A stretch of 64,000 nucleotides of DNA. Source: Planctomycetota bacterium. Its GTDB lineage: Bacteria > Planctomycetota > Phycisphaerae > WQYP01. The stretch covers positions 7,978 to 71,977 of the forward strand of contig JAJYFE010000002.1 of the NCBI GenBank assembly GCA_021785435.1. Direction: 5' to 3'. Position 1 is the stretch's first letter, and every line of letters starts with the position of its first letter. A program made the translations under genes and the position numbers. The notes under the pieces are model-generated. The model searched no databases and had not been told where the DNA came from. It saw nothing but the letters and a program-made list of their open reading frames with translations. Shown here piece after piece: positions 28,047 to 49,856 of the stretch.

Positions 28047-28505
28047 TTACCCAGATTTCAGGCGGAGTGTGCGGATCGTGGCAAAAAGAATCCGCGCGAT
28101 TTCATCCGCAGCGTCGAGCAGTTGCTGCGCCGTCTGATGGTCCAAGTAATCTATATCCCGCATCCAGCTGATCCAGTACTTCGACTCCTGACATTCCTTG
28201 TATGCAATTGACGCCTGGTGCGACAGTTCCATGCCAGAAATGGCGGCGCCCGCCTCCGCCAGATTTGCGCCGATGGAGGTCCCGCTTCTGAGCAGCTGTC
28301 TGGACAATACGAAGTCGCGCTTTCGCCGGCGCGCGTCTTCGCAAGTCTTCACCACACGGAGCGCAAAGCCATAAGCCTTCACATACGCGGGACCCCCGGC
28401 GGCAGCGCCATCATTCTTGGGGTATCGCACTGCCGGCCCCGTCGTGCAACTGCCCTCTGCCACGTTATCGGTCACGGTGTTCCCTTTCCTCTGGTCACTG
28501 GTCAC
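28047..28505 (-). CDS. Four-helix-bundle protein (23S rRNA intervening-sequence protein family)
   Basis: LSRQLLRSGTSIGANLAEAG and KECQESKYWISWMRDIDYLD are signatures of this family. 152 aa. Confidence 0.8.
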   Translation of the reverse strand: MTSDQRKGNTVTDNVAEGSCTTGPAVRYPKNDGAAAGGPAYVKAYGFALRVVKTCEDARRRKRDFVLSRQLLRSGTSIGANLAEAGAAISGMELSHQASIAYKECQESKYWISWMRDIDYLDHQTAQQLLDAADEIARILFATIRTLRLKSG

Positions 28506-28532
28506 TGGTCACTGGTTACTGGTCACTGACTT
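28487..28532. repeat. Five tandem copies of heptad CTGGTCA (one variant CTGGTTA); right flank of the four-helix-bundle cassette, overlapping the stop codon of the TolC-family gene
   Basis: CTGGTCACTGGTCACTGGTCACTGGTTACTGGTCACTGAC. Inverted relative to the 28010-28040 copy. Confidence 0.65.
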
Positions 28533-32140: not shown

Positions 32141-32195
32141 CCAGTGACGCAGTGGCCAGAGACCCTAAATAAGGAACTCCTTTGCTCTGGTCACG
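32141..32195. repeat. Degenerate heptad/AAATAAGGAACTCCTTT hairpin element that fills the 70-bp gap between the two adaptor genes
   Basis: CCAGTGACGCAGTGGCCAGAGACCCTAAATAAGGAACTCCTTTGCTCTGGTCACGGGTCA, with CCAGAG/CTCTGG stem arms. Confidence 0.55.
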
Positions 32196-36300: not shown

Positions 36301-39300
36301 TATCAAACGTCGCGCCGCTGCTCAAAACCACACCGCTGGAATCGGCCACGCCGCCGGCCCCGGAAAGCGCCAGCGTGCCGGCGCTGAGGGTGGTCGCGCC
36401 GGTGTAAGTGTTAGCGCCGGAAAGCGTTTCGGCGCCGGAATTGAGCACCACGCCGCCGTTGCCGCTGGCGCCGTTCTGGATGATACCGGAGAAGGTGCCG
36501 CTGGCGTCGGTTAGCGTCAAATTCTTCGCCCCCAGCGTGACGGTACCACCGCCCGCTAGCGAGGTGATCGACGTACCGGCGGCATTGATCCGTGAGATAT
36601 CAAACGTGGCCCCGCCGCCAACCGTCACCCCGCTGGAATCAGCGATGCTGCCATCCGTACTGGTGCCGCTGTTGTAGGCGAGCGCCAGCGTGCCGGAATT
36701 GACGGCGGTGGCGCCGGTATACGTGTTGACGCCCTCAAGCGTCAGCGTATCCGGCCCGGCGACGGTCAACACGCTGCCGCCAATGATGGGGGCGCTGATC
36801 GTGGCGCTGGCGTTCATGGTGACCGCGCCGTTGAGAACCAGGCTGCCTCCCCCGCTGGCGGCAATGGTATAGGAACCGCCTGTCCCCATCGCGTTAAATG
36901 TAATTCCCGCCGCGGTGACACCGGCCTGGTCAATCGTCACCGTGACCGCGCTGGTCCCGCCCGCGCCGAAGGAAGCGATATCACCGTTCGCCCACACTTG
37001 AGCCGTTCCGCCGGTCTGCGCTGTGCTCCACAGCGTGTTTCCGCTGCTGGTGTCCCAGTTGCCGTTGTTATCCGCCTGCGCTGTTCCGCCCACCGTGCCG
37101 GTCCAATAGAGCGTCGGCGTACTGACGAGCGAAATAACCTCGCCGGTGTCGGCCACATAGGCGGCCGTATAAGAAAGGGATCCCGCGTTGGTAAGATGCA
37201 CGGCGCTGAAATTACCGGTGACCGGGCCGGTCGTCCCAATCACGGTATAATTTTGGCCCGCCTGCGGGTTGGCGCCGCTGGCGAAGATCAAGTCCAGCGT
37301 GCCGGCCAATGAGGCCGCCCCGCTGCCGAGTCGAAGGGAATCGTAGCTGGTGCTGCTGCCCACCAGCAGGGCCAGCGTGGAATCAGCTTGCTGAGTGTAG
37401 CTGGCGGCGTTGACGGCCAGCGTCGTGCCCGATCCCGCCTGCGCGCCGGTGGTTTCAAGCGTTGTCCCGGAATTGACAGTTAAGGCCCCCGTTCCGAACG
37501 CGCTATCGCTGCCCGCGACCAACTTTCCATTGCTGACAACCGTTCCCCCGGTGTAAGTGTTGGTTCCAGAAAGCGTCAGTGTCGTGGCGGTCGTACCAGC
37601 ATCCAGGACCACGCGGCCGCCGCCGGAGATGACGTGTGAAAAACTGGTGTTGCCGGCTGGCGGCTCGGCGCTTGGGGCGAAGATCAGGGCGGAATTATCC
37701 ACGATGCCGCCGCCTAACTGCGACGTGTCGCCCTCCAATCGCAGCGTGGCGCCGTTGCCGATGGTGGTGGTGCCGCTGTAGGTGTTGGCGCCGGAAAGGA
37801 TCAGTTCGCCGCCGCCGTCGTTGGAGGTGACGGTCAAGGCGCCGCCACTGGTTTTGTCAGCGATCACACCGGAGAGCGTAAAGACCGTGCCCGTGCCGAC
37901 ATTGATCGTGTTGGTAACGCCCGTCCCGTTGAAAAGATACCAGTTGTTGGCGAGGCTGGAACCGCTGCCGCTGTTATTGTCGCCGAAGTCAATGGTTCCG
38001 TTGTCCAGGTAAAACAGGACGTTGCTTGTCGGCTGCCCGCCGCCGCTGCCGACCTGGAATGTCGTCGGCGTGCTCGCCCCGCCGCCGATTTGCAGCGTAC
38101 CGGCGGTCACGCCCGTGAAGTTAGCGCCATTGTCGACAAAAGTGCCGTCCGTCAATACCAGAATATTGCCGGCGCCGCTGCTGGTGACCGATCCGCTCAG
38201 GGTGAGCGTCTGGCCACCGGCGTCAATGAAGTTGTTGGCGCCGGATATGGTAATGTTATTGGGGACACCCAGCCCGATTCCCGTTTCATTTACAAATGTT
38301 CCATCATCCAGCGCGATGGTGGCGCCGGCGCCGATAAAGCCATTAGCCTTCGGCCCGGCCGTAAATGTCGCCGCGGTGGCCAGCGTGCCGTTACCGGTCT
38401 GAATTGTCCCCGCGGTAAAGCCGGTAAAACTGCCATTATCGACAAATCCGCCGTCCTGCAGGATCAACGTGTTTCCCGCCGCGGCGCTGCTGACCGTACC
38501 GGTCCAGGTGATGGTGGTGCCGAAGCCGCCGGCGTCGATGGTATTGGTGGTCGAGCCGGTGACGGTGATAGCGGTGTTCGATGAGAAGCTCGTGCCGCTC
38601 GCATTGACCACTGTGGCGCCTGCGAGCGTCAGCGGACCGGTTCCAAGGTCGGGTCCGGACGTTGTCTCCAAGTCAACTGTTACGCCGCCTTCCAACGTGG
38701 TGCCGCCGCTGTAAGTGTTGGCGTCGCTTCCCAAGGTGAGCGTATGGGCCCCGGTGATGGTCACCGCGCCGCTGCCGGAGATCGCGTGCGAAAAACTGGT
38801 GTTGGCCGTTAGTTCAAAAATCAGGGCGGAATTATCCACGATGCCGCCGCCTAACTGCGAGATGTCACCTTCCAGCTCCAGTGTCGCGCCGGCCTCAATC
38901 GTGGTCGTGCCGGCGTAGGTGTTCGCCGCCGGATTGCCGCCGCTCTGGGGGTTCAAAATCAAGGTGCCTCCGGCGGTGCTGGAGGCGACCGTCAGGCCGC
39001 CACCGCCGGAAATAACGCCGTCGAGTTCCTGCGAGCTTTCGTTGCCCACGTCGATGGTGTTGGTGACGCCCGTGCCGGAAAGGAGGGTCCAGGGATTGCT
39101 CCTCGGGCTCCCGGCGCCGCCGCTGCCGCCGGCGAAGGACAACGTGCCGTTGTCGAGTTGAAAGATCACGGCACTTTTGGGCTGACCGTTTGCGACGTTG
39201 TTGCCGCCGACCTGCAAAGTTGCCGGCGTGTCGGCCCCACCGCCAATTTGCATCGTGCCAGCAGTGACGCCGCCGAAATCGGCGCCGCTAAGCACAAAGT

Positions 39301-40075
39301 GGCCGTTCTGGAAGACCAGGGTGTTGCCGACGCCGCTGCCGCTGGATCCAGTGCCGTTGACGATGGAACCGCTAAGCGTCAGCGTGTTGCCGGAACCACC
39401 GGCATCGATGATGTTGACGGTCGTGCCCGAGGTGTCGGTGATGTTGATGCCGGTGATAATGCCGCTGGTGCTGGTGCCGGCCGTAAGGTCCAGTGTCCCG
39501 CCACCGGTGAACTGAAGGCTGACGGGAATCGCGGGGCTGGCGTTTTGAAACATGCTTAACGTGTCGTAAGAAACGCTGACCGGACTGTTGCTGCTGTTAA
39601 CAGCGATACCATATTGCACGGTGGTTGTGCTTGGATTGGCGGTCGAGCTTTGGTAGGTGCCACTACTATTTATCCATCCAAGCACCAGGTCGGTCGCATC
39701 TTTTGAAGTATCATAGATATTACCGAGGTCCCAGGTGCCGGCGGTGACGATCTGCGGTGAAGTGGGCGAGGATGCCTCTTCGCCTACGCCGGTAGTCGTA
39801 GCCCCGGTCGACTCCCAGGTCATTGGAAATTGTTTCTGCACCGGGCCTTCATAGCCCGCCGGGATCACCAAGCCCGCGTCTGTGCTTGAGAACACGGAGT
39901 ACCCCTGCATCTGGGTGCCATTGCCAACCAAACTTAGGTCACCGCTGGCAATATCCACCTCTATGGTCATATCGCTCGATGACGGTGGCAGCGTGAACGC
40001 CATCGCGGGCAGGGATAGGGAACCAACGGCGGCCATCGCGGCCAACAGGCACAGTCTCTTCTGGGTACGTTTCAT
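33389..40075 (-). CDS. Giant type Va autotransporter: signal peptide, passenger with many autotransporter-associated beta-strand (PATR) repeats, C-terminal 12-strand beta-barrel translocator
   Basis: Signal peptide MKRTQKRLCLLAAMAAVGSLSLPAMA, start ATG at 40075. Dozens of LTLSGANTYTGTTTISAGTLAL repeats with ~516-bp periodicity in the DNA. Autotransporter barrel (GVDYNLASHLVVGAMFAYNYTG ... LNYEAQVGQ). Confidence 0.85.
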   Translation of the reverse strand: MKRTQKRLCLLAAMAAVGSLSLPAMAFTLPPSSSDMTIEVDIASGDLSLVGNGTQMQGYSVFSSTDAGLVIPAGYEGPVQKQFPMTWESTGATTTGVGEEASSPTSPQIVTAGTWDLGNIYDTSKDATDLVLGWINSSGTYQSSTANPSTTTVQYGIAVNSSNSPVSVSYDTLSMFQNASPAIPVSLQFTGGGTLDLTAGTSTSGIITGINITDTSGTTVNIIDAGGSGNTLTLSGSIVNGTGSSGSGVGNTLVFQNGHFVLSGADFGGVTAGTMQIGGGADTPATLQVGGNNVANGQPKSAVIFQLDNGTLSFAGGSGGAGSPRSNPWTLLSGTGVTNTIDVGNESSQELDGVISGGGGLTVASSTAGGTLILNPQSGGNPAANTYAGTTTIEAGATLELEGDISQLGGGIVDNSALIFELTANTSFSHAISGSGAVTITGAHTLTLGSDANTYSGGTTLEGGVTVDLETTSGPDLGTGPLTLAGATVVNASGTSFSSNTAITVTGSTTNTIDAGGFGTTITWTGTVSSAAAGNTLILQDGGFVDNGSFTGFTAGTIQTGNGTLATAATFTAGPKANGFIGAGATIALDDGTFVNETGIGLGVPNNITISGANNFIDAGGQTLTLSGSVTSSGAGNILVLTDGTFVDNGANFTGVTAGTLQIGGGASTPTTFQVGSGGGQPTSNVLFYLDNGTIDFGDNNSGSGSSLANNWYLFNGTGVTNTINVGTGTVFTLSGVIADKTSGGALTVTSNDGGGELILSGANTYSGTTTIGNGATLRLEGDTSQLGGGIVDNSALIFAPSAEPPAGNTSFSHVISGGGRVVLDAGTTATTLTLSGTNTYTGGTVVSNGKLVAGSDSAFGTGALTVNSGTTLETTGAQAGSGTTLAVNAASYTQQADSTLALLVGSSTSYDSLRLGSGAASLAGTLDLIFASGANPQAGQNYTVIGTTGPVTGNFSAVHLTNAGSLSYTAAYVADTGEVISLVSTPTLYWTGTVGGTAQADNNGNWDTSSGNTLWSTAQTGGTAQVWANGDIASFGAGGTSAVTVTIDQAGVTAAGITFNAMGTGGSYTIAASGGGSLVLNGAVTMNASATISAPIIGGSVLTVAGPDTLTLEGVNTYTGATAVNSGTLALAYNSGTSTDGSIADSSGVTVGGGATFDISRINAAGTSITSLAGGGTVTLGAKNLTLTDASGTFSGIIQNGASGNGGVVLNSGAETLSGANTYTGATTLSAGTLALSGAGGVADSSGVVLSSGATFDISQVTTGATILGLTGPGGTVALGGETLTVNVASGANTFGGVIQDGGIGSGTGGGLTLSGAGTLTLTGANTYTGTTTISAGTLALGSGGSIADSSVALSSGGTLDISQTTSGATIPGLTGTGGTVALGGKALTINIASGSDTFGGAIQDGGIGSGAGGSLVLGGNGTLILSGANTYTGTTTISGGTLEFTASTAELTGNVTDNTALIFAQAASSGLSGAISGSGGVAENGAADTTLTFSVTETYTGATSVASGTLALSGAGSIADSSGVALSGGAAFDISQTTSGATILGLTGAGGTVALGGKALTINISSGANTFAGVVQDGGIGSGTGGSLILSGGGTLALSSANTYSGGTTLTNASVVQVGQSSSLGSGGVTIKGDGGGTIQFGAASLNVANNLTLSSSGTIDANGFGGVAAETYSGAITGGGGLTVASSRPGGELILPNANSYVGGTTIDSGAAIDVGNSSALGTGDVILNSGAVLASINAVPANINNSTGIAINVGGNYTMGANSTLVLAIAGPSTDTGSYDTLNVAGTANLPNGNLLVQFNHGYSPAALDKYTVVTAASVTGPFANARSTDPLYTLTQTATSTTDTIEVLPIKPELTEEAAADMGNTSVETGIFTSETIFQEIGDIFNGVTGFNASGLSLLHTPDADPFTTALNAAMKSTSQQARDSVRDLDVFNPGVAAGGGAVPVPSSESRKNTLSGFVTGDIIVADTGEVAHYTTGGVIAGVDYNLASHLVVGAMFAYNYTGAKLDNIGSALRDNAYSPGVYFGVRKSHFYLNGLASYTYNDYRLHRNVTAATASSSPYGHQFDLDALAGYNFHFFRGFKAGPAVGLGYTHLNVSGYTETGAPAQDLTIAPMSVDSLRSLLGAQLAYAWRLRPTAPAVNFTGNAFWQHEYLNGSRAINAFFPGGVPFAISTPAPERDSALLGAGVSGNLAKNMTLFLNYEAQVGQEHQMAQSVMAGVAIALK

Positions 40076-40258
40076 GGCACTTTCCCTTTCATATAATGGG
40101 GCATGATAATCCTCATCGTTGCCACCTGGCCAATAGCGTCTGCGCCCGAACCGAATACGCCTTTGACCGCAAAAAATTTCCCCTGTTTCGCGCCAGAAAA
40201 AGCTGGAGCGCATAATAACCAGGCCGACCAAGGCTGTCCACACATTACAGTTCACTCC

Positions 40259-43200
40259 TCACGCGGCCAACAGCGCCCCGGATATCAACGGCGGCTGCAG
40301 CGGATTGGCCAAAAGCCCTGTTGGGCCAATGATCGCCGGAGGTAGGGCAAATTCACTGTTGTCCGCGGTTGGCGCTGTGCCGCCCGCGAAGCTTGCTTCA
40401 GATGCGGCGCCGAATATCGATCCGCCGACAGTGACGGATGGCGTCAAATTGCCGGTGGGGCCCACGCCACCGGTGCACGGCGCAGCGGGCGTCAACGTGC
40501 CAGTGTTATTCAGCGTCAATGTCTCGCCGGTATTCAGGCTCGGCGCGCTATCGAGTGTCGCCGTCAAGGTCAGGACCGCGCCACCGCCCGCGCCGCCCGG
40601 GGTCAAGCCGGCGCCACCGGGCGTGGTGGCGCCGGACAAAATGGCGTCGATGGCCGGCGACTGCGTGGTGGCGCTCAACGCCTTACCATAGTGGTCACGC
40701 ACCGCCGTGAAGTCTTGCAGATTCACGACACCGCTGTAGCCGAAGTTGCCGTGGTCCCAGCCCTGATTCGCCTGGCCGTAATGATCCCGCACCGCGGTGA
40801 AATCCGGCAAGGTCACGAGGCCGTCCAGGTTGGCATCGCCCGGCAGGGTGGCCATGATTTTCTCCTGGCCCGCGCTTAAGCCGTTGACAACGCCATCGGC
40901 GCCGTTGGCGTAGCCTACGCTATAGCCGCTCGGCGCGGTGATGGCGCCACTGGCGATGTAGCCCTGGATCGTGGTATTGGGGTTTGTCCCGCTGCCATAG
41001 GTGATGATCACGCCGTTGCCAACAGCAGTGTTATCCAGATTCAGCGTCGCCCCGCCGGCGATCGTCAAACCGGACGTGCCGTCCAATGTGCCGCCGGAGC
41101 CGACAATCAGCGCACCGGCGTTGATGGTTGTCAGACCGGTGAAAGTGTCGCTGTTTTCAAGGGTCAACGCCCCGCCGCCGGTGACGGTCAAACCGCCGTT
41201 GCCGGTGATGGCGCCGGTCGCGAGGCTAGCCAACAGATTGGTGTTGACCGTGCCGCCGCCGCTGTTGAGCGTCAGGGCGTTACCGATGGTCAGGCTGCCG
41301 CCGCTGTTGTTTTCCAATGTGCCGCCGTCGAGGGTGATCCCGCCACCGGGCAGGGCGTTGCCCGAGTCGGCCAGCAGGGTCGAAGAACCGGCGGTATCGC
41401 TTAATTCCAGCGTGCCCGCAAAACCCGCATTGTTGCCGGAAAGCTCGACGTTGCCGTCGGTCAGTTGCAGTGTGGCTGCCGCTGGACCGTCGATGTCGCC
41501 GGTGAATTGGAGCGTATATGCACCGCTGAAACCGCCGGAGTCGATTATATTCGAAGTTCCCGATACCGCCAGAACATTACCAATGCTCACTGTGGATGCC
41601 GTGGAACCGGTGTAAGCCAGGTCGCCATTATTCAAAGTGATCGTGGCGCCGGGAGCGGGCAAACTCGCGGGGCTGGCGAACTGCAGTGTGGCCGCCGCCA
41701 AAGGCCCACCAACCTGCAACGTGCCGAGGGTGAAATCGCCCGTGCCATTGTTGGTGCCGCTGAAATTGACTGCACCATTTTCAATCGTCAACGTCTGGCC
41801 GGTCGTATCGGTGACCGTTCCGGAATACGTCACAGGGTTACTGGCGGTGGCCCCGCCGGCATTGATGATACCGTTAGCCTGAAGGGTGAGGTTATTCGCA
41901 GAGCTTAGACCGGAGGCATATTGCAGGGTGCCGCCACCAAGACCAACGGTAATGGCGGCGCTGGCTGGCAACAGCGCGGGTGCCGTGGTGAAATCGACCG
42001 TGGCGCCATTCTCAAGCGTCAGACCGCCGGTTAGCTGCGAATCATCACCGCTTAGCGTGAGCGTATGAGGGCCAGAGACAACCAACGGCCCGCTGGCGAT
42101 GATCGGGGCACTGATGGTGGCGTTATTGTCGAGCGTGATGGTGCCGCTAAGGGTCAAAGGATCGCTGCTGGTGCCGGAAATTGTGTAAGAATCGCCGCTG
42201 CCCATGCTGTTGAAGATCAGGCCACCGGCGGAAACCTGGCCGCCACTGTCATCAATAGTGATTGTGTACGATCCGCTGCCGCCGTTGCCGATGGAAGCAA
42301 CATCGCCGCTGGTCCAGGCCGTGGTGCCGCTGCCCCAGCTGGCGGCGCTCGCGCTCCAGGTGCCGTCGCCATCAACGCCGGTGCCCTTTGGATCCCAAGT
42401 TAACGCCGTTGGCCCCGCGGTAGGCGTCAACAAAAACGCCTCGGTTTTGCCGCCGCGAACGGCCCCGAACCCTACGATGTCTCCGTTGGAATTAATGCCC
42501 GTGGATTCCTCAAGCGCCCAGCCCGGATTGTTCAGAATCAATGAAGCCAGTGGTGTCATGGTTCCATTGGCGTAGATGAAGGCCTGGCTGTCACCAAGCG
42601 AGTCCGAACGGTAGTAGCCCACAATGACGCCTGAATTGTTGATCGCCAAGGGGTACGTGCCGAAGCCATCGACGTCGCCTAAGTCATGCATCGTGCCATC
42701 GTAGAAGAAAGCATGGTCATCGCCGCCGGTGGTGGCGGGAGAGAAGCCAACCACGTCGCCGGAATCATTGACCGCGGTAGCAGTGCTGGCGTTGCCGCCC
42801 AGCGTACCAAGATCCTGCATTTCAGGATTGCCGGAGACACCGCTGGTCCCACCGTTGGTCCACAGGAACGCGTGGGATGGATTCCCCGTGCCGGAGGTCG
42901 TTGAACTGCCAACGATATAGGTACCGTTCGGGCTGATTCCGCTGGCATAGCTTGCTGATCCACCCAGCGTGCCCAAATCCGTCATGCTGTTGTTTGACAC
43001 GGTCGGGTTGGGGAAGAGGAACGCATGGTATGCGTCGGCGTTGGTGCCGCTGGTGCCGACTACGTCTCCAGCGGTGTCAATGCCCGCACCGTAGCTGACT
43101 GGAAGACCCAGCGAGCCGCTCAGTGAGCCTAGAGCCACCGTGAGTCCGCCGGTGTCTGCGGTGCCGCTGCCGCCCGAATAAAGGAACGCATTGTAATTTT

Positions 43201-43741
43201 GCCCGGCGGTTTGGCCGGAGCCGGCGATCTGGCCGCTGGCGTTAATGGCGAGCGCCGACCAGTTGGAACTGCCCGGGAACGGCACGGGGCTATATTGGTT
43301 GCCGGAATACACGAACCCCTGGTTGTAGGAGGAAGTTGAGGTCTCAAAAGTCGCGTAACCCACGATCTGGTTGGAGTCGTTCATCCCGGTGGCGAACGTG
43401 GCCGAGGCGTCGGAAGGAATGCCCAAGCCCTGAATCGTATAATAAGTTGGCACGGATGGAGCATCAGTGCCGGCCTGTTGCGACCCGGCCGTCAACGGCA
43501 TCACAACCGACGCGGATGTCGGCGGGTTATTCGCCAACAGGCCAGCGGCGGCCCCGGCCGATGCGCTCAGGAGCACGCGCGGCTCCAGCGCTTCAAGACG
43601 TGGGCCGCGCCGTGCCACGCGGCGATGCTTGGCGGCCCTGCGGCGGCTGCGCCTCCGTAATACGCTGTCCAAATTGTGCAAAAAGATAAGGAAGGGCACC
43701 GCCGCACTCCCTAAATTCGAGCACCGCTCGCTGGAATCCAC
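40259..43741 (-). CDS. Giant secreted protein: Arg-rich N-terminus with a LEALEPRVLLSA motif, beta-strand repeat passenger-like region, two dockerin-like Ca-binding repeats
   Basis: N-terminus RRRSRRRAAKHRRVARRGPRLEALEPRVLLSASAG. Dockerin-like DANLDGLVTLPDFTAVRDHYG and VVNLQDFTAVRDHYG. PATR-like GxxTLTLSG repeats. Confidence 0.7.
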   Translation of the reverse strand: MDSSERCSNLGSAAVPFLIFLHNLDSVLRRRSRRRAAKHRRVARRGPRLEALEPRVLLSASAGAAAGLLANNPPTSASVVMPLTAGSQQAGTDAPSVPTYYTIQGLGIPSDASATFATGMNDSNQIVGYATFETSTSSYNQGFVYSGNQYSPVPFPGSSNWSALAINASGQIAGSGQTAGQNYNAFLYSGGSGTADTGGLTVALGSLSGSLGLPVSYGAGIDTAGDVVGTSGTNADAYHAFLFPNPTVSNNSMTDLGTLGGSASYASGISPNGTYIVGSSTTSGTGNPSHAFLWTNGGTSGVSGNPEMQDLGTLGGNASTATAVNDSGDVVGFSPATTGGDDHAFFYDGTMHDLGDVDGFGTYPLAINNSGVIVGYYRSDSLGDSQAFIYANGTMTPLASLILNNPGWALEESTGINSNGDIVGFGAVRGGKTEAFLLTPTAGPTALTWDPKGTGVDGDGTWSASAASWGSGTTAWTSGDVASIGNGGSGSYTITIDDSGGQVSAGGLIFNSMGSGDSYTISGTSSDPLTLSGTITLDNNATISAPIIASGPLVVSGPHTLTLSGDDSQLTGGLTLENGATVDFTTAPALLPASAAITVGLGGGTLQYASGLSSANNLTLQANGIINAGGATASNPVTYSGTVTDTTGQTLTIENGAVNFSGTNNGTGDFTLGTLQVGGPLAAATLQFASPASLPAPGATITLNNGDLAYTGSTASTVSIGNVLAVSGTSNIIDSGGFSGAYTLQFTGDIDGPAAATLQLTDGNVELSGNNAGFAGTLELSDTAGSSTLLADSGNALPGGGITLDGGTLENNSGGSLTIGNALTLNSGGGTVNTNLLASLATGAITGNGGLTVTGGGALTLENSDTFTGLTTINAGALIVGSGGTLDGTSGLTIAGGATLNLDNTAVGNGVIITYGSGTNPNTTIQGYIASGAITAPSGYSVGYANGADGVVNGLSAGQEKIMATLPGDANLDGLVTLPDFTAVRDHYGQANQGWDHGNFGYSGVVNLQDFTAVRDHYGKALSATTQSPAIDAILSGATTPGGAGLTPGGAGGGAVLTLTATLDSAPSLNTGETLTLNNTGTLTPAAPCTGGVGPTGNLTPSVTVGGSIFGAASEASFAGGTAPTADNSEFALPPAIIGPTGLLANPLQPPLISGALLAA

Positions 43742-44102
43742 CGGGTAATCAGCCAGACGCCAACAAAGTCACCTGGCGCAGCGCCATTGACCCTGTGGCG
43801 ACAGGATCAAACCGCCGCGTGTGCCCAAAAACCGCCTCTTGCCCCGAAAATCCAGACCGCCATGCCCGTTGGCCTGCCCATGCATCGCGGCACGAGGCGG
43901 CGCGCCGAGTCGCAGCAACTCTACTCCGTCTTTCCCTCCCATACGAAATACAACAACCGGTTGAAAGAGTTACGGCAGATGAATAACCCGGCAACCGGAT
44001 TGCAACACAAAGAACGACTGCATTGTCGGACCCCCAAGATATCTGTCAAGCCACCAATCATGATGGCAGCAACCCGGCGTCTGCGTTCAACCGGGCGCCC
44101 CC

Positions 44103-47100
44103 TCAAAGCGGCCTCGCCTCTAACGGCAACCTTAAAATATCCGGCGCAAGGCTGGCGTCCAATCCACCCGCTAGCCGGGACGTGGGGCTGGCTCCCGGCG
44201 GAGAAACCGTGCCGAAGCTCGCGGTGGAAATCGGCCCGCCGGAGAAATCCCCCGCTGGCAGGATCCAATATGCGCTACCGCCGAACGACGCGACGACCCG
44301 GACGGCGCCCGAGGTCGTCGAACGGGCCAGCGCCGAGCCGATCGCCGAATCGAAGGCAAGCGCACTACCGTTGCCCGCAACCCCGGCCCCGGCGCGACCA
44401 AGCGGGACCCCTACCTGTGCGGCGGGCCCGTAGCCGCTATTCAATGAGCCAGCGTGTGTCCGGCTCGTGCCCTGGCTGCTCTGCGGGACCGCGGTCGCGC
44501 TAACCACACCCGGTACCAGGAGGTTCGCTATCGGGCTGCCCAAGCCGGTGACCAAGTCGTACCCGGGGCCAGCGTAGTAGCCGTTATAGCCGCTGGTAAT
44601 GTCGTGGAAATCCGTGCTTGGGAGATTATAAAGTGCAGATAGGGTCTGGCCCGAAGAGAGAGAGCCGTCACCCAAAGACGCCCGGCCCTGGTCGACGAGC
44701 GCTACCAGGCCAGCCCACATGGGACAAGCCAGGCTCGTACCGCCCTCCTCTCTATTTATCCACGGTGCCGCTGATCCATAGTCGTAGGAGTCATAGATCG
44801 GCACGCCAGTGGCTGGATCGGCGTCCATCGAGACATCGGGCGTGGTTCGGTACCCAGAACCTAGCCCGTTGGTCTTGCCGCTCTGGTAGGCTGGCTGCGG
44901 TTCGCTTTGGCTGATCCCGCCACCCCCGGCGATCGCTGGATTCCACGAGTCGCTTCCCAGGCTCCAGCCCACCTCGCCACCCCAACTATACCCGCCGCTG
45001 CCATTCGCGTTGACAGTGAGCGTCGTTCCCCCGACCGCGACCACATTGGGCGAATAAGCTGGGTAATTGCCGGGCGCTCCCTGGTCCCCCGTCGAAGCGA
45101 GGAACGTGACTCCACCCGCCAAGCCGGAGCCGCCCGTGTGCCCGGGAGGCGTCACCAGAAGTTTATCGTAACTCGGTTCATATGACCACCACAAGGTCGT
45201 CAGGTCCGACTCAGGCTCGCCCCAGCTCATGGAAACCGCGACGACCCCATTCAACGATGCCGCGGTCTGCACGGCGGTATAAAGGTCGCCAGCAGAGCTA
45301 TTCGCCTCGACGAGCACGATATTGGCGTCCGGCGCGATGACGTGCGCCCATTCGACGTCAAGGGATTCCTCGCTGGTCCAGCTACCGCCATCGGACGGCA
45401 ACTCCGATGAACCACCATCCTGGTTGACCACGGAAAGCGTCGGGCCGCCTGCCGTACCGAACTGCGGCAGACCAAATTCAGCGCTAAACGCATTGGCATC
45501 GGCAACAATGTAGGGATCGTTGTACGCATCGACGATAGCGATCGTCTGGCCCTGCCCGTAAGCCGGCGTACCGCCAAAATTAATCGTGCTGGCGCCATAG
45601 GCGCCCAGACCATACGCCTCCCGCATTTGCGTCGGCGTCAGTCCGGACGGCGTGGTGCTGCCTGGGCCCAGAGCGGGGAGTATGGCCGTAGCGACATTCG
45701 AGACTAAACCCGTGCCGGGGTTGCTTACGGTAACTTCAATGGTATCGCCCGGCTGAGCTTGGTAAGGCCAGTCGCCATACGCCCAACCGCTGAACCCCGC
45801 AACCGTTAACTCTGAGTCGGTCCAATTCGTCACCTCCAGGCCAACAGCATCGCCCGTGCCGCCAGCGTGGAAGTCTTGCGTGACATCGTACACGTCGATG
45901 TACGGGCTTGTGCCGTCGAAAGCTGCCTGCGAGCCGAAGCCGCTGCCACTGATCGTGAGGTCATCATTGTAGTACCAGAGAAACTCGGTTGGCGAACCGG
46001 GAGCAACGCCTGATATCGCTGGTGACTGGGCAGCCGAGTAAGCCGCCAGGTACGGTACCAGCAGGTTGGCCTTGGGGGTTCCCAGGCCTGTCTCATCCTG
46101 ATAGCCGTATTTGGCGTACTGGGAGCCGGCGCTGTTGAGGTAGAAGTCGCTCGCGGAGGCGGTGTACAAGGCGGGCAACGTTTGTGCGTTTCCCGTGAGC
46201 GTCGGCAGACCAGCGTCTGCACGCCCCTGATCCGCCAACGCAATCAGACCGGCCCACTGCGGCGCGCCGGCGCTGGTCCCCAGAACGGCCTCCCAGCCGC
46301 TGCTGGTGTAGATAGCGTACGGCTTAGCGCAGTATGACACGTCCGGGGTGGAGCGGTCGGAGGTGTCGGAGAGGCCGTTGGCGCCCTGTTGATAGCTTGG
46401 CTGCGGCTCGTACTGGCTGGTACCCCAAGCAGTGCCCTGATAGGGACCGTTGCCATCGTGCCAGGCGCTCTCACCACCGGATGGATAGTCGCCCGCAGCA
46501 TCCAGCCCACCGGTCGCCGAAGGGCCGTTAAACACCGTGCCGCCGACGGATAAAACATTGCCTGAAGCGGACGGCCAGTTCACCGTGTTCCATTGGTCGC
46601 CGGCGGCGGCGACGAACGTGACACCGCTCGTTGCGAACGCGGAGTCGAGGGATGTTTCCGTCGCACCACCCCAAAGGGAATCGGACGAATTCCATTCCCG
46701 CCACCCGAGGCTCATCGACACAACCGACGGACTAAAGTTCAGCGCGGTTTTCACAGCGTTCGCTAGATCCACAGGGCTATATGCGCCAATCTGAGGGAGG
46801 CCCCGCCAGGTCCAACCGACCCACGCACTGCTGTCTTCCTCCACTACGACGATTTTCGCGGCCGGCGCCACGGCGTGCGCCCACTCAACGTCAAGCACGT
46901 TTTCCAGTCCATCGCCCGAATCGTTGCCGCAGTTTTCAGTGTCGGGATTATACTGGCCGGGCGAAAGCACGTTGCCGTTTTGGTCGGTTACCGTCAGCCA
47001 GGTACTGGCACCACCGTAGGTGCCATACAGGTTATCGCCATTGGCCGCCTTCATGTTGTAGTCAAACGCGTTCACATCTGCGTAAAGGTTTAGATCGTTG

Positions 47101-49856
47101 GTAAGGCCGATGACGGCGATCGTCTGGCCCTGGCCGGTATAAGCGTTGCCGGCTGAATCAGTCGTCAATTGGTTGAAACCATAAGCATTGAGAACTTGGG
47201 TGGTCGCGAGCTCAGAAGCTGGCGGCGGTTCATGCCCCTGCGAAATCGTAAACTGGTATACCTGCGAGGAAAGGCCGGTTCCAGGATTCACCACACGCAG
47301 GCTTAGCGGATCGTTCGGCGAAAGCACGTTTGTGGTCTCATTGACCTGCTGCCCATACTCGCCACCGAGGCTGGCGACCTGAATCGAATTTGGAGTCCAC
47401 GAGGTGACGTCGGCTGTGACCCAGTCGTATGAGTGACCGGCATTGAACGATGCATTAAAGTCCTCCAGCCAAAGGTCGGGGCTGTCGCCGTTGAAGGCAT
47501 TCTGCGTTCCAAAGTTGCTGCCCTGGATCGCGAAGCTCCAATTGTCATAGCTCTGGCCCGATACGGGAATGGCTGTCGCCGTCACACCCGTGATCTTTGG
47601 CGGGCTTGCCGAGGTCCCAACCGATGGCGCTTGGAACGCGTAAACATTCGACACCTGGTTATTGTCTGGGTTCACCACCGTCAGGGTCAAGTTATCGCCG
47701 GGATTGATGAAGTACGTGCCCGTGCCGTAGTTGCCGCCCAGATTCGAAATGGCGATGGAGGTCGCGCTCCAGGCGCCGGAAGCTATGTTGGCCGTGACGC
47801 CGTTCTTCGAATCGGTGCTCCAACCAGCGGTGCTGTCGCTCAAGACCAGGTCAGCACCGGTGCCGTTGGAACCGAATCCGCCGCCGGTGACAGCAAAACT
47901 CCAATTATAGCCGCCGCCGCTCATCGGAATGGCGCCGGGAGTGGCATTCGTAATCGCTGGAACGGCCGAGTTGGTTACATTGCACCAGTCGATGACGTTG
48001 GTGGGAGTCCACGCGTTGCCGGCGGTGCTATACTCGCCGCCCGCGAACATCACTAGGTCGCCCACGGACGCCGAGGCCATCCCATAGCGTGGTTGGGACA
48101 ACTCAGCGAATGACCACTGGTTCGTGGTAACGTCAAATATATTGACGATGCCCGTGTAGTTACCAACCGCGGCATCGGATTCTGTGTCCCCACCCGCAAA
48201 AAAAGCAAGATCGCCGGAAGTAACTGCGGACATTTCACCCGCCGCCTGTGGCACAGCGGCGGTTGTCCACTGGTTAGTATCCAAGTTGTAGATGTCTACG
48301 GCGCCGCTGGCGGCGTAGCCGCCTACACCCGGCGGCAACCAGTTGCCCATCGTTACAACATCAGTTTGGTGGGTCTGTCCGCCAGCGAAGATCGCATCGT
48401 CGCCCACAGTTGTCGCTGCGATGCTGCTACGCGCCTGCGAGAGCAAGGCGGTGGACCATTTTCCATTGTTGGCGTTATAAATGTCCACTGCGGCAGTTGT
48501 ATTGGGAGTGGCGCTGGCAACATTGTTGACCGTCCCGCCCGCAAAGATCGCCAGATCGCCCACGGTGGTCGCGGCAATAAACCAGCGTGCTACCGAAAGC
48601 GTTGCCGTCGACCATGTTCCCGTGCTTGTGTTGTAAATGTCCACATCGCTGCTGGGCGACCATGTTCCGTCCGAATACGTGGCGCCACCGGCGAATATTG
48701 CGAGACTGCCCACGGTCCCGGCGGCCAAACCGTAACGCGCTTGCGAAAGGGCGGGTGCGCTGGACCACTGGCCGGTGCTGACATTGTAGGTATTTACCGC
48801 AGCGGTCGGAGCCCAAGCTCCGTTCGAGTATGACGCGCCGCCAGCGATGATCAGCTCATCGCCGACCGCAGTCCACCCCGCCCCGACCGTTGCGTCTGGC
48901 TGTACAGTGGCGGACCATTGGTCCGTGCCGGTGTTATATATCTCGAGACTGCTGTTAATAGCCCACCCGCCGCTTGTGTAATAACTTCCGCCCGAGAGGA
49001 CGACGTATTGGCCCACCGAGATCGCGCGCATCGCGCCACCGGGACTGGGCAATGAACTGGTTGACCATTGTCCTACGCCGGGCTGCGGCGCTGGAGCTGC
49101 TACCTGGTAAATGTTGGATGCTTGGCCGGTGCTGGGATTGGCGATCTGTACGGTCAGGGCGTCGCCTGACGAAATAACCCAGCTACCGCTGCCATAACCG
49201 CCCGTCAGACCGTCAATTTGAATCTGCGTGTCCGACCAATTGACGACATTTGCGGTTACGGCGTCGTTGGAACCGGAATACCCGGCACCCCAACCTGCTG
49301 TGGCGTCGTAGATCAGCAAGTTGGAACTATCGCCGTTGAAGGGCGATTGCGACCCAAAACCACCGCCCGTAATCGTAAATTCCCAGTTGTAGTAACTTTG
49401 TCCGTTGATTGGTATCGCGGTGAGGCTCACGCTGGCGATCACGGGGCCCGTCGTTGTAGCATCGGTGGATACGGCCAGACTGACCGAGTCTGTGGAGGGC
49501 TGCAGTAGCGTGGGGGATTCGGCCGGATTCGCCGTGCCGACAGTGGTGGAATCCACGCCCGCTACCAACGGCACCGTGACGGACCGCGTGGCGGCGGATA
49601 GGGCCGCCAGTGCAGCGGTGGGAAGCAGGCCGGACCCGCTCAACAGCAGCCGCGGCTCGAGGGCTTCAAAGACGGGGCGCTGGGCACGGGGCGGCCGCCT
49701 GAAAGATCGGCTGGGCCAAGCGTCCACCCCCGTAAAGGGCAGGCCAAGGTTTAACGAGGCCACAACTCGCTTAATAAACGCACGCCCCCGCACCCGGCCG
49801 ATCCGAGGCGCGCGACCCGTGTCAGAACGCGCCGCGGAAAATATGCGAACACCCAT
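44103..49856 (-). CDS. Giant secreted protein: FEALEPRLLLSGS N-terminal motif, IPT/TIG-like and Kelch-type propeller repeats, two sedolisin (S53) peptidase domains
   Basis: Two copies of GQGQTIA[VI]... VEWAH[AV][VI]AP... GGTS[AL][GA][AC]P[QM]WAGL[IV]AL[AV]DQG. Kelch-like repeats (IYNTGTDQWS, VDIYNTSTGTWS). AAGGAGG RBS before the ATG at 49856. Confidence 0.7.
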   Translation of the reverse strand: MGVRIFSAARSDTGRAPRIGRVRGRAFIKRVVASLNLGLPFTGVDAWPSRSFRRPPRAQRPVFEALEPRLLLSGSGLLPTAALAALSAATRSVTVPLVAGVDSTTVGTANPAESPTLLQPSTDSVSLAVSTDATTTGPVIASVSLTAIPINGQSYYNWEFTITGGGFGSQSPFNGDSSNLLIYDATAGWGAGYSGSNDAVTANVVNWSDTQIQIDGLTGGYGSGSWVISSGDALTVQIANPSTGQASNIYQVAAPAPQPGVGQWSTSSLPSPGGAMRAISVGQYVVLSGGSYYTSGGWAINSSLEIYNTGTDQWSATVQPDATVGAGWTAVGDELIIAGGASYSNGAWAPTAAVNTYNVSTGQWSSAPALSQARYGLAAGTVGSLAIFAGGATYSDGTWSPSSDVDIYNTSTGTWSTATLSVARWFIAATTVGDLAIFAGGTVNNVASATPNTTAAVDIYNANNGKWSTALLSQARSSIAATTVGDDAIFAGGQTHQTDVVTMGNWLPPGVGGYAASGAVDIYNLDTNQWTTAAVPQAAGEMSAVTSGDLAFFAGGDTESDAAVGNYTGIVNIFDVTTNQWSFAELSQPRYGMASASVGDLVMFAGGEYSTAGNAWTPTNVIDWCNVTNSAVPAITNATPGAIPMSGGGYNWSFAVTGGGFGSNGTGADLVLSDSTAGWSTDSKNGVTANIASGAWSATSIAISNLGGNYGTGTYFINPGDNLTLTVVNPDNNQVSNVYAFQAPSVGTSASPPKITGVTATAIPVSGQSYDNWSFAIQGSNFGTQNAFNGDSPDLWLEDFNASFNAGHSYDWVTADVTSWTPNSIQVASLGGEYGQQVNETTNVLSPNDPLSLRVVNPGTGLSSQVYQFTISQGHEPPPASELATTQVLNAYGFNQLTTDSAGNAYTGQGQTIAVIGLTNDLNLYADVNAFDYNMKAANGDNLYGTYGGASTWLTVTDQNGNVLSPGQYNPDTENCGNDSGDGLENVLDVEWAHAVAPAAKIVVVEEDSSAWVGWTWRGLPQIGAYSPVDLANAVKTALNFSPSVVSMSLGWREWNSSDSLWGGATETSLDSAFATSGVTFVAAAGDQWNTVNWPSASGNVLSVGGTVFNGPSATGGLDAAGDYPSGGESAWHDGNGPYQGTAWGTSQYEPQPSYQQGANGLSDTSDRSTPDVSYCAKPYAIYTSSGWEAVLGTSAGAPQWAGLIALADQGRADAGLPTLTGNAQTLPALYTASASDFYLNSAGSQYAKYGYQDETGLGTPKANLLVPYLAAYSAAQSPAISGVAPGSPTEFLWYYNDDLTISGSGFGSQAAFDGTSPYIDVYDVTQDFHAGGTGDAVGLEVTNWTDSELTVAGFSGWAYGDWPYQAQPGDTIEVTVSNPGTGLVSNVATAILPALGPGSTTPSGLTPTQMREAYGLGAYGASTINFGGTPAYGQGQTIAIVDAYNDPYIVADANAFSAEFGLPQFGTAGGPTLSVVNQDGGSSELPSDGGSWTSEESLDVEWAHVIAPDANIVLVEANSSAGDLYTAVQTAASLNGVVAVSMSWGEPESDLTTLWWSYEPSYDKLLVTPPGHTGGSGLAGGVTFLASTGDQGAPGNYPAYSPNVVAVGGTTLTVNANGSGGYSWGGEVGWSLGSDSWNPAIAGGGGISQSEPQPAYQSGKTNGLGSGYRTTPDVSMDADPATGVPIYDSYDYGSAAPWINREEGGTSLACPMWAGLVALVDQGRASLGDGSLSSGQTLSALYNLPSTDFHDITSGYNGYYAGPGYDLVTGLGSPIANLLVPGVVSATAVPQSSQGTSRTHAGSLNSGYGPAAQVGVPLGRAGAGVAGNGSALAFDSAIGSALARSTTSGAVRVVASFGGSAYWILPAGDFSGGPISTASFGTVSPPGASPTSRLAGGLDASLAPDILRLPLEARPL

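What the first reader, a model, noticed from the sequence alone, without database searches (positions are those of the whole stretch)
40259..49856. Two adjacent giant secreted proteins share an Arg-rich N-terminus followed by the conserved motif LEALEPRxLLS — candidate dedicated sorting or leader signal
One reads RRRSRRRAAKHRRVARRGPRLEALEPRVLLSASAG and the other RRPPRAQRPVFEALEPRLLLSGSG. In both the motif sits directly before a short hydrophobic stretch. Motifs of this LExLExRxLLS type recur at the N-termini of large Planctomycete extracellular proteins, and to my knowledge their function is unresolved. The neighbouring autotransporter has a classical signal peptide instead. The proximity of these proteins to a PqqD/M50/SecA-like module suggests the motif could be that module's recognition and cleavage site. 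The payload domains (two S53 sedolisin peptidases, Kelch propeller, dockerin repeats) suggest an extracellular protein or glycan degrading and adhesive role.
Basis: partly seen in the sequence, partly recalled or inferred. Interest (0 to 1): 0.65.

Follow-up and report, generated by a model that had tools for sequence, protein, structure and literature searches.

The report
Export tag for giant surface proteins
Both large proteins begin with the already catalogued 'LEPR-XLL' tag. Comparison with about 180 loci from other bacteria shows that genes with this tag repeatedly sit beside the same little-studied SecA-like/protease/TolC export gene cluster found here, so the tag is most likely that machine's address label.

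Summary
ORFs 40259-43741(-) and 44103-49856(-) carry RLEALEPRVLLS and VFEALEPRLLLS behind Arg-rich stretches.

The motif is not new. Both proteins pass NCBIfam NF012209 (LEPR-XLL domain). It is the 'Planctomycete extracellular' signal of Studholme 2004 (PF07595), whose export route is unknown.

The downstream module is also published, by Kamneva 2015, as a T1SS-like locus with no known cargo. It comprises two adaptors, a TolC-like OEP, a PqqD/M50/adaptor fusion and a truncated SecA.

- LEPR-type genes directly abut the module in 10 of 83 module loci, from Phycisphaerae/Planctomycetota and Nitrospira.
- Module genes lie just upstream of 11 of 65 LEPR loci from metagenomes.
- A giant LEPR-XLL gene sits immediately upstream of the module in 8 of 8 alphaproteobacterial replicons, and within or beside it in Thiomicrospira cyclica and a metagenome operon.

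Most LEPR N-termini lack a Sec-type hydrophobic core.

Best reading: LEPR-XLL is the N-terminal leader for this SecA-like/M50/adaptor/TolC pathway. Recognition by the RRE-like domain and cleavage by M50 are inferred, not shown. The S53 and dockerin payload claims were not confirmed; Kelch, HAF and PATR repeats were.

The parts
44103..49856 (-). LEPR-XLL protein, 1917 aa from ATG 49856 (AGGAGG 7 nt upstream); Kelch beta-propeller region plus unassigned domains
49605..49673 (-). LEPR-XLL domain (residues 62-84 of the ORF; core FEALEPRLLLS at 49670-49638)
   Evidence: NF012209 26.1 bits against cut-off 17; regex
40259..43741 (-). LEPR-XLL protein, maximal ORF 1160 aa (true start probably a later GTG/TTG); six HAF repeats and a PATR repeat
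43535..43600 (-). LEPR-XLL domain (residues 48-69 of the maximal ORF; core LEALEPRVLLS at 43597-43565)
   Evidence: NF012209 25.5 bits against cut-off 17; regex
33389..40255 (-). Classical autotransporter (10 PATR repeats, C-terminal barrel, Sec-type signal peptide). It lies between the LEPR genes and the module and does not carry the motif.
32191..33120 (-). Periplasmic adaptor (MFP/HlyD family), 309 aa
30654..32120 (-). Periplasmic adaptor (MFP/HlyD family), 488 aa; it precedes the M50 fusion in most module loci elsewhere
28516..30414 (-). TolC-like outer membrane factor (OEP)
28047..28505 (-). Four-helix-bundle protein (23S rRNA IVP family) inserted in the module; not conserved in other loci
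25820..28036 (-). PqqD/RRE-like domain + M50 intramembrane metalloprotease + MFP adaptor fusion
23608..25683 (-). Truncated SecA paralogue (NBD1-PPXD-NBD2; homology to solved SecA ends within NBD2, leaving about 80 unmatched C-terminal residues)

Best explanation
The shared N-terminus is the LEPR-XLL domain (NCBIfam NF012209; the 'Planctomycete extracellular' motif). I read it as the N-terminal leader that routes large and giant surface proteins into a type-I-like secretion apparatus. That apparatus is encoded 7-26 kb downstream on the same strand. It consists of a truncated SecA-like ATPase, a fusion of a PqqD/RRE-like domain with an M50 intramembrane protease and a periplasmic adaptor, two further adaptors and a TolC-like outer-membrane channel.

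Proposed steps:
1. The cytoplasmic RRE-like domain binds the basic-[F/L]-E-x-L-E-x-R-x-L-L-S leader.
2. The SecA-like motor, which keeps its preprotein clamp, feeds the unfolded chain into the membrane complex.
3. The M50 protease removes the leader.
4. The adaptors and the TolC-like channel carry the protein across the periplasm and outer membrane.

Shown: family membership of the motif, the domain make-up of the module, and a statistically strong cross-phylum gene-neighbourhood link between LEPR-XLL genes and the module.

Inferred: that LEPR proteins are the cargo, that the RRE-like domain reads the motif, that M50 cuts it, and that SecYEG is not used.
For: Membership: both proteins pass NF012209.

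Module make-up:
- Pfam and NCBIfam assignments.
- HExxH (H214, E215, H218) and N315/N317/P318/D323 are invariant among 14 homologues of 41-53% identity to the window protein.
- The AF2 model (pLDDT 79) has three strands then three helices at residues 26-99, as RRE domains do; helices through 109-460; and a C-terminal half whose best Foldseek hits are MacA, MexA and AcrA.
- The SecA-like protein aligns with B. subtilis SecA residues 17-552 only, and the GEGKS and DEAD-type motifs are kept.

Forward synteny:
- In 83 distinct module loci, 11 carry a LEPR-type N-terminus in the flanks.
- 10 of those are immediate neighbours of the module or lie inside it.
- In 6 of the 12 cases counted (11 loci plus the window), the motif starts within 600 bp of a module gene. 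The binomial P is 3e-5 against uniform placement in a 10-kb flank.
- One of the loci is a Nitrospira (L071, NF012209 27.8 bits).

Reverse synteny:
- Of 65 metagenomic LEPR loci with at least 2 kb upstream, 11 have module genes upstream.
- 6 of them have the M50/SecA core, P about 7e-7 at a chance rate of 0.47%.

Whole operons:
- T. cyclica: giant, SapC, OEP, MFP, LEPR-XLL protein (3177 aa), MFP, M50, SecA-like.
- Metagenome L171: SapC, OEP, MFP, MFP, M50, SecA-like, LEPR protein (3843 aa).

Annotated replicons: in 8 of 8 alphaproteobacterial plasmids/chromids, a 4,000-12,900-aa gene with the motif sits directly upstream of the module. Three of them are named 'LEPR-XLL domain-containing protein' by RefSeq.

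Not a classical Sec or T1SS signal:
- In 38 proteobacterial homologues the motif starts at median residue 19 after about 5 K/R and is followed by S-A-D-P. The best 15-residue hydrophobicity has a median of 1.53, against 2.19 for a real signal peptide.
- P0140 and P0168 have no RTX or any other Pfam domain.

Literature:
- The module's cargo was unknown (PMC4452313).
- The Chlorochromatium LEPRxLL giants 'lack known signals', are flanked by sapC and tolC, and are co-expressed with a horizontally acquired secA (bioRxiv 10.64898/2026.03.19.712371).
Against: - In this window the LEPR genes are not immediate neighbours of the module. Their motifs lie 10.5 and 16.6 kb from the nearest module gene. 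A Sec-dependent autotransporter lies between them, and each large gene has its own promoter-like site.
- Most module loci (72 of 83) show no LEPR gene within the flank seen, although only 41 have at least 8 kb of flank. L001 and L006 are flanked by housekeeping genes.
- Planctomycetes hold dozens of motif-bearing genes: 52 in Tuwongella immobilis, with a variant motif (PMC8567305). Kamneva found the module only in 'some' Planctomycetes. Whether every LEPR-bearing genome has a module was not tested.
- The Thalassospira locus and L072 lack a SecA-like gene next to the M50 fusion.
- The PqqD hit is just below Pfam's cut-off in the window protein, 22.3 against 23.4 bits.
- A Vibrio LEPR-XLL giant also has C-terminal RTX/serralysin domains typical of ABC-type T1SS cargo (PMC10868602).
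- The two window proteins have an Ala/Leu-rich stretch after the motif, so Sec export cannot be excluded for them.
- There are no binding, cleavage or secretion data.
Confidence: 0.68

Rival explanations
1. LEPR-XLL is a specialised, extended n-region of an otherwise ordinary Sec (or Tat) signal peptide, comparable to ESPR or YSIRK. The proteins cross the inner membrane through SecYEG and are cut by signal peptidase I. The module acts only later, at the outer-membrane step, or is merely co-regulated.
For: - The region before the motif is basic, and in the two window proteins an Ala/Gly/Leu-rich stretch with possible A-x-A sites follows it (VLLSASAGAAAGLLA; LLPTAALAALSAA).
- Studholme 2004 and PMC8567305 call it a signal peptide.
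- The module has no obvious inner-membrane channel other than the M50 domain (PMC4452313).
Against: - Most LEPR N-termini have no hydrophobic core. An Asp sits at position +11 (SADP), and the 15-residue hydrophobicity is 0.6-1.5 in the module-adjacent planctomycete examples, against 2.19 for a real signal peptide.
- No twin-arginine consensus precedes a hydrophobic region.
- A PCAT-like layout, with a leader-binding domain and a protease fused to the exporter, fits an N-terminal leader better.
- No signal-peptide predictor was available.
Confidence: 0.17
2. The proximity is incidental. The module exports small ribosomal peptides (RiPP-like), as its PqqD/RRE and M50 parts suggest. Giant surface-protein genes merely travel in the same horizontally transferred islands.
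For: - The best NCBIfam hit of the M50 fusion is the daptide leader protease (152.7 bits, below the cut-off of 300), and YydH/LiaK matches weakly.
- The locus is horizontally mobile (PMC4452313) and often plasmid-borne.
- Three small ORFs follow the LEPR gene in L170.
- Many module loci have no large neighbour.
Against: - No conserved small-peptide gene was seen next to the module. The recurrent small partners are SapC or DUF3467.
- The LEPR gene is the immediate same-strand or divergent neighbour in 8 of 8 annotated replicons and in several phyla, sometimes inside the module. Hitch-hiking does not predict this.
- The positional statistics argue against chance.
Confidence: 0.07
3. LEPR-XLL is not an export signal but an N-terminal retention or anchoring element. 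It would act like the retention module of LapA/MpIBP-type adhesins, holding the protein in the TolC-like channel or at the cell surface after export by another signal.
For: - A Vibrio LEPR-XLL giant carries C-terminal RTX/serralysin domains, typical of C-terminal T1SS signals.
- In Tuwongella, 8 of 20 detected motif proteins are found only in the SDS-soluble envelope fraction.
- The Chlorochromatium giants stay cell-associated until contact with the partner.
Against: - The element is only about 24 residues, not a folded plug domain.
- The module-linked examples P0140 and P0168 have no RTX or other Pfam domain.
- Homologous beta-helical passengers carry either LEPR-XLL or a TPS secretion domain at the same N-terminal position (P0174, P0181, P0186). 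That suggests interchangeable export signals.
Confidence: 0.08

Closest known systems
LEPR-XLL domain (NCBIfam NF012209) / 'Planctomycete extracellular' motif (Pfam PF07595; Studholme, Fuerst & Bateman 2004)
   Same: A motif of about 24 residues at the N-terminus, with the core ExLExRxLL[S/A] after a basic stretch, on large to giant extracellular proteins. Both window proteins pass the NF012209 cut-off.
   Different: Nothing differs in kind; these are further members. The Pfam model itself does not report the two window N-termini. No export route has been assigned to the family in the papers found.
Secondary SecA_DEAD / T1SS-like conserved locus (Kamneva, Poudel & Ward 2015, PMC4452313)
   Same: Short SecA paralogue, M50/HlyD protein, further HlyD-type adaptors and OEP, without an ABC transporter. 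The phyla match too: Planctomycetes, Verrucomicrobia, Proteobacteria, Nitrospirae, Chlorobi.
   Different: That paper names no cargo and calls the biological role completely unknown. Here LEPR-XLL genes are shown to be its recurrent neighbours. The window's copy has an inserted four-helix-bundle gene, and no GAF domain was detected in its 488-aa adaptor.
Peptidase-containing ABC exporters with double-glycine leaders (PCAT; e.g. CvaB-CvaA-TolC for colicin V) (from my own knowledge)
   Same: An N-terminal leader is recognised and cut by a protease that is part of the exporter. A periplasmic adaptor and TolC complete a one-step route.
   Different: The ATPase here is SecA-like rather than ABC. 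The protease is an M50 metalloprotease with an RRE-like domain rather than C39. The protease is fused to the adaptor, not to the ATPase. The cargo is thousands of residues long rather than a peptide.
Accessory SecA2/SecY2 system with KxYKxGKxW-type signal peptides; ESPR and YSIRK signal-peptide extensions (from my own knowledge)
   Same: A conserved motif in the N-terminal region marks very large surface proteins for a special route or mode of export. A SecA paralogue is dedicated to a small cargo set.
   Different: Those motifs precede a normal hydrophobic core and use SecY-type channels. LEPR-XLL usually lacks such a core, and no SecY paralogue is in the locus.
RiPP leader recognition (PqqD-like RRE) with M50 leader proteases (daptide protease NF041824; YydH/LiaK NF058609)
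   Same: An N-terminal beta3-alpha3 domain followed by an M50 membrane protease, homologous over residues 29-431 (model).
   Different: The score is below the equivalog cut-off (152.7 against 300). Here the unit is fused to an MFP adaptor and paired with a SecA-like ATPase and TolC, and its neighbours are giant proteins rather than short precursor peptides.

Membership tests
NCBIfam NF012209 LEPR-XLL domain | HMM score at or above the curated cut-off (17 bits) | tested here: met
   25.5 bits (1160-aa ORF, residues 48-69) and 26.1 bits (1917-aa ORF, residues 62-84)
NCBIfam NF012209 LEPR-XLL domain | Located at the N-terminus of a large or giant protein, after a short basic stretch | tested here: met
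   The start codons are uncertain, so the distance from Met is 20-62 residues here, against a median of 19 in 38 homologues
Pfam PF07595 Planc_extracel | HMM score at or above the gathering threshold (25.5 bits) | tested here: not met
   No hit reported for either window N-terminus, even at E<=10. The T. cyclica LEPR-XLL N-terminus scores 18.7 bits. By eye, the published consensus RRLxxExLExRxLLA matches.
Sec-type (SPI) signal peptide | Hydrophobic core of about 7-15 residues after a positive n-region, then an A-x-A-like site | tested here: inconclusive
   Window proteins: 15-residue KD of 1.85 and 1.57, against 2.19 for the autotransporter control. Family-wide median is 1.53, with a conserved Asp inside the stretch. 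No SignalP was available.
Tat signal peptide | S/T-R-R-x-F-L-K consensus directly before the hydrophobic core | tested here: not met
   RR pairs occur (RRRSRRR, SFRRPP) but not in the consensus context. They are separated from the weak hydrophobic stretch by the acidic LEALEPR motif (read by eye).
Classical ABC-type T1SS cargo | C-terminal secretion signal, usually with RTX (HemolysinCabind) repeats | tested here: not met
   No RTX domain in the two window proteins or in the module-embedded P0140 and P0168.
Secondary SecA_DEAD / T1SS-like locus (PMC4452313) | Short SecA paralogue with the DEAD motor and preprotein-binding domain but no scaffold/wing domain | tested here: met
   691 aa; SecA_DEAD, SecA_PP_bind and P-loop_SecA only. 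Aligns with B. subtilis SecA residues 17-552.
Secondary SecA_DEAD / T1SS-like locus (PMC4452313) | Adjacent M50/HlyD protein plus further HlyD-type adaptors (and often OEP), with no ABC transporter | tested here: met
   The order HlyD-like, M50 fusion, SecA-like recurs in the large majority of the 86 loci mapped.
RiPP recognition element (PqqD-like RRE) | Three-stranded sheet plus three helices; Pfam PF05402 at or above the gathering score; binds a leader peptide | tested here: inconclusive
   PF05402 scores 22.3 against 23.4 bits in the window protein but is precomputed as a hit in many homologues. The AF2 model shows beta3-alpha3 at residues 26-99. Binding is not testable here.
M50 site-2 protease | HExxH and NxxPxxxxDG-type motifs in membrane helices | tested here: met
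   H214, E215, H218 and N315, N317, P318, D323 are invariant in 14 homologues. The Pfam M50 hit is weak (21.8 against 27.2 bits).

The most novel reading that the evidence does not exclude
LEPR-XLL is the dedicated N-terminal leader of a distinct, widely distributed secretion pathway found in Planctomycetota, Nitrospirota, Chrysiogenota, several classes of Pseudomonadota and probably Chlorobiota. In it, a RiPP-type leader-recognition domain fused to an M50 protease and a periplasmic adaptor, driven by a truncated SecA motor, replaces the ABC transporter of type I secretion. The pathway exports proteins of up to more than 12,000 residues in one step through TolC. This would pair an orphan signal (2004) with an orphan machine (2015). 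It would also explain how giant proteins such as the Chlorochromatium symbiosis factors leave the cell.
Probability: 0.5. Interest if true: 0.85.

Novelty: new member of a known kind. Interest (0 to 1): 0.7.

Why it matters
Both the signal and the machine are in the literature, but as orphans. The motif has been a 'putative novel export signal' since 2004. The secondary-SecA locus has been a secretion-like module of 'completely unknown' role since 2015. A 2026 study of giant LEPRxLL proteins states that they lack known transport signals.

The neighbourhood evidence gathered here joins the two. It turns the open questions into direct experiments: delete the SecA-like or M50 gene, map the mature N-terminus, and test leader binding. 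If confirmed, it would define a further route for exporting very large adhesin-like proteins in environmental and symbiotic bacteria. It would also give annotators a cargo predictor for it.

Tried and rejected
- The first four context look-ups around M50-fusion homologues (L001, L003, L004, L006) gave no hit with a strict regex, which at first argued against any link. A small HMM later recovered variant motifs in L003 and L004.
- P0001, the window's own M50 protein, is not on record for context look-up, and its cluster carries no name. The nearest genomes are Phycisphaerae at 53% identity.
- A 19-sequence alignment that mixed planctomycete and proteobacterial leaders was too diverse for the metagenome scan. 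A narrower set was used instead, so the reverse test samples mainly the LE[PSA]R[VI]LLSAD type.
- I looked for the Chlorobium chlorochromatii SecA paralogue in paper supplements and in the SecA-like homologue list, without success.
- Pfam, NCBIfam and PDB sequence searches for S53/sedolisin and dockerin domains in the payloads found nothing.
- The promoter and terminator scan does not settle operon structure.
- Other large ORFs near module loci (L011, L020, L037, L050, L054, L015) proved to be helicases, RND pumps, spurious high-GC ORFs or Sec-signal proteins, and were not counted.
Full report
**1. Observation**

The two ORFs named in the finding exist: 40259..43741(-), 1160 aa, and 44103..49856(-), 1917 aa. 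Their translations contain the quoted N-terminal strings.

A six-frame scan of the whole window finds the E-x-L-E-x-R-x-L-L-S pattern only at these two places. Both N-termini pass the curated threshold of NCBIfam NF012209, 'LEPR-XLL domain', at 25.5 and 26.1 bits against a cut-off of 17. So the resemblance is family membership, not chance.

The 1917-aa gene has a strong AGGAGG 7 nt before ATG 49856. The 1160-aa ORF has several candidate GTG/TTG starts.

Payloads:
- Kelch repeats are found in the longer protein, and six HAF repeats plus a PATR repeat in the shorter one.
- The neighbouring 2288-aa protein is a classical autotransporter with a Sec-type signal peptide.

**2. What the motif is in the literature**

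It is the consensus RRLxxExLExRxLLA that Studholme, Fuerst and Bateman described in 2004 in Rhodopirellula baltica (Pfam PF07595). [quoted passage not shown]

In Tuwongella immobilis, 52 genes carry a variant of it, including 8 of the 10 longest proteins. Twenty of the 52 were detected by proteomics (PMC8567305).

RefSeq's name 'LEPR-XLL domain-containing protein' also appears on:
- a roughly 8000-aa Vibrio protein (PMC10868602);
- the 36,806- and 20,647-aa Chlorochromatium proteins Cag_663 and Cag_665. [quoted passage not shown]

No paper found assigns an export route to the motif.

**3. The module**

Downstream on the same strand lie:
- two MFP/HlyD adaptors (32191-33120 and 30654-32120);
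- a TolC-like OEP (28516-30414);
- a four-helix-bundle gene (28047-28505);
- a PqqD + M50 + HlyD fusion (25820-28036);
- a 691-aa SecA paralogue (23608-25683).

The SecA paralogue aligns with B. subtilis SecA residues 17-552 only. That covers the motor domains and the preprotein clamp, with the ATPase motifs intact. Its homologues show the same three Pfam domains and never the scaffold/wing domain.

The fusion family is large, with at least 1419 hits. HExxH and the N..NP....D motif are invariant among its members. An AF2 model (pLDDT 79) shows an N-terminal beta3-alpha3 domain of the RRE type, a helical membrane domain, and a C-terminal half whose best structural matches are MacA, MexA and AcrA.

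This locus was described by Kamneva, Poudel and Ward in 2015 (PMC4452313) as 'secondary SecA_DEAD' proteins with T1SS-related neighbours. They found it in Planctomycetes, Verrucomicrobia, Proteobacteria, one Nitrospirae and one Chlorobi. They proposed SecA_DEAD as the ATPase and M50 as the membrane component, but named no cargo and called the biological role completely unknown.

**4. Testing the link, from module to motif**

A genome scan with the fusion protein returned more than 592 loci, of which the best 80 were kept. With the earlier look-ups this gives 83 distinct module loci. The order HlyD-like, fusion, SecA-like recurs in the large majority of them.

LEPR-type N-termini occur in the flanks of 11 of the 83 loci:
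- Four pass NF012209: L053 at 33.6, L071 at 27.8, L075 at 23.7 and L072 at 17.4 bits.
- Three fall below the cut-off, and three are variants with no NF012209 hit. The single-Glu variant in L042 was not scanned against the model.
- Ten of the 11 LEPR genes are immediate neighbours of the module or lie inside it.
- Counting the window as a twelfth case, in 6 of 12 the motif starts 169-592 bp from a module gene. The binomial P is 3e-5 under uniform placement within a 10-kb flank.
- One case is a Nitrospira (L071).

In Gammaproteobacteria, a giant ORF cut by the locus end abuts the module in Pseudomaricurvus, Thiomicrospira microaerophila and L077.

Full-length homologues of the Thiomicrospira ORF almost all begin M-(basic)-F/W-x-[VL]-E-x-L-E-x-R-[VIL]-L-L-S-A-D-P. 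Several are named LEPR-XLL by RefSeq.

**5. From motif to module**

A metagenome scan for LE[PSA]R[VI]LLSAD gave 80 loci.
- Of the 65 with at least 2 kb upstream, 11 have module genes directly upstream.
- Six of those have the M50/SecA core. The other five are cut by contig ends after the OEP or adaptor gene.
- At a generous chance rate of 0.47%, the P value for the six is 7e-7.
- This is a lower bound. In most other loci, the LEPR ORF (more than 3400 aa) or a tandem giant fills the flank that could be seen.

Individual contexts:
- T. cyclica: 13,846-aa giant, SapC, OEP, MFP, LEPR-XLL protein of 3177 aa, MFP, M50 fusion, SecA-like.
- Metagenome L171: SapC, OEP, MFP, MFP, M50 fusion, SecA-like, LEPR protein of 3843 aa.
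- Chrysiogenes arsenatis and Marinomonas sp. A79: a giant gene directly before the module.

**6. Annotated replicons**

A tblastn search of PLSDB with the T. cyclica fusion found alphaproteobacterial plasmids and chromids. In all eight that I examined, a gene of 4,000-12,900 codons carrying the motif lies immediately upstream of the module. The module there reads: DUF3467 where present, then MFP, M50 fusion, SecA-like and MFP, with TolC in some. In Pseudosulfitobacter, SapC instead lies between the M50 fusion and the SecA-like gene.
- RefSeq names the giant gene 'LEPR-XLL domain-containing protein' in Pontibrevibacter, Pseudosulfitobacter and Thalassospira.
- I read the motif in Methylosinus (FDTLEPRVLLNAD), Mesorhizobium ciceri and Pseudohalocynthiibacter.
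- In Alisedimentitalea and Rhizobium johnstonii the motif lies in frame just upstream of a mis-called start.
- The Thalassospira locus has no SecA-like gene.

**7. Is it a Sec signal?**

In 38 homologues the motif starts at median residue 19, after about five K/R residues. It is followed by the conserved S-A-D-P and only weakly hydrophobic residues. The module-adjacent planctomycete examples are weaker still. The two window proteins are the most hydrophobic of that set, so Sec export cannot be excluded for them.

The module-embedded LEPR proteins have no RTX or other Pfam domain, which argues against a classical C-terminal T1SS signal.

Homologous passengers carry either LEPR-XLL or a TPS domain at the N-terminus. 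This is what interchangeable export signals would look like.

**8. Interpretation**

The best-supported reading is that LEPR-XLL is the leader for the SecA-like/M50-adaptor/TolC pathway, and that the two window proteins are likely cargo.

The closest mechanistic analogue is a double-glycine leader exported by a peptidase-containing ABC transporter with an adaptor and TolC. Here the ATPase and the protease have been replaced.

The gene-neighbourhood link is shown. Leader binding by the RRE-like domain, cleavage by M50 and independence from SecYEG are inferred.

Caveats:
- In this window the link is looser than elsewhere: the motifs lie 10.5 and 16.6 kb from the nearest module gene, and an autotransporter lies between.
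- Most module loci show no LEPR gene in the flank available.
- Planctomycetes have dozens of motif proteins per genome but one or two modules.
- Phyletic co-occurrence was not tested.

**9. Novelty**

The motif family and the module are both published, so the window holds new members of known kinds. I found no paper that pairs them, and NCBIfam release 20 has no specific models for the module proteins.

Noticed in passing
L180 (NZ_CP123586.1, about 183224) and L185:10682-10826 (NZ_CP140822.1): RefSeq start codons of two giant genes are called downstream of the LEPR-XLL motif, which lies in frame 7 and 48 codons upstream. The proteins are therefore named 'calcium-binding' and 'Ig-like' rather than LEPR-XLL. 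Start miscalls will hide this signal in genome-wide counts.
   Followed up: yes
P0174, P0181, P0186 against the other homologues of L083:1-6855: Homologous beta-helical 'hemagglutinin-like' passengers carry a classical signal peptide plus TPS (PF05860) domain in some proteins and LEPR-XLL in others. This suggests swapping of N-terminal export signals on the same passenger.
   Followed up: partly
L087, L171, L172, L177 (SapC); L006, L174, L175, L181, L182, L185, L186 (DUF3467): A small SapC-family or DUF3467 protein accompanies the module and giant gene in most proteobacterial loci and in one planctomycete-like locus. Its role is unknown, possibly a chaperone. Neither was found in the window's cluster.
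   Followed up: partly
window 28047-28505 (-): A four-helix-bundle gene (23S rRNA intervening-sequence protein family, TIGR02436) sits between the OEP and the M50 fusion with 10-bp gaps. It is absent from all other module loci examined.
   Followed up: partly
L174 and L177 (annotation), P0215: RefSeq and GenBank label the SecA-like ATPase of this module variously as 'prepilin peptidase', 'DEAD/DEAH box helicase', 'preprotein translocase subunit SecA' or 'hypothetical protein'. The M50 fusion appears as 'PqqD family peptide modification chaperone', 'site-2 protease' or 'biotin/lipoyl-binding protein'. No consistent name exists.
   Followed up: no
L186 (Thalassospira marina NZ_CP024200.1) and L072: Two module loci have the M50 fusion, adaptors and OEP/TolC next to a LEPR gene but no SecA-like gene adjacent. 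The ATPase may be encoded elsewhere or may be dispensable.
   Followed up: no
L014 and L041 (same MAG, JAUHYI01): One Phycisphaerae genome carries two copies of the module. Kamneva also lists two copies in Planctomyces brasiliensis and in Magnetococcus marinus.
   Followed up: no
window 40259-43741 (-): The 1160-aa LEPR protein combines six HAF repeats (TIGR02913) with an autotransporter-type PATR repeat but has no beta-barrel. It also has a C-terminal pair of DxxxDG-like repeats that no model recognised.
   Followed up: partly
L108/L117, L093/L121, L114/L120, L088, L169, L170: LEPR-XLL giant genes often occur in tandem, two or more per contig. One example is a 2,900-aa gene followed by an 11,500-aa gene in Massilia.
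   Followed up: no
window 17362-18849 (+), 21172-22863 (+), 56831-58372 (-): The other genes in the window look ordinary for a planctomycete: an N-methyl (prepilin-like) protein, a beta-helix protein, AAA_14/DUF4143, ThiC, PGK, a histidine kinase and an MFS-acyltransferase fusion.
   Followed up: partly
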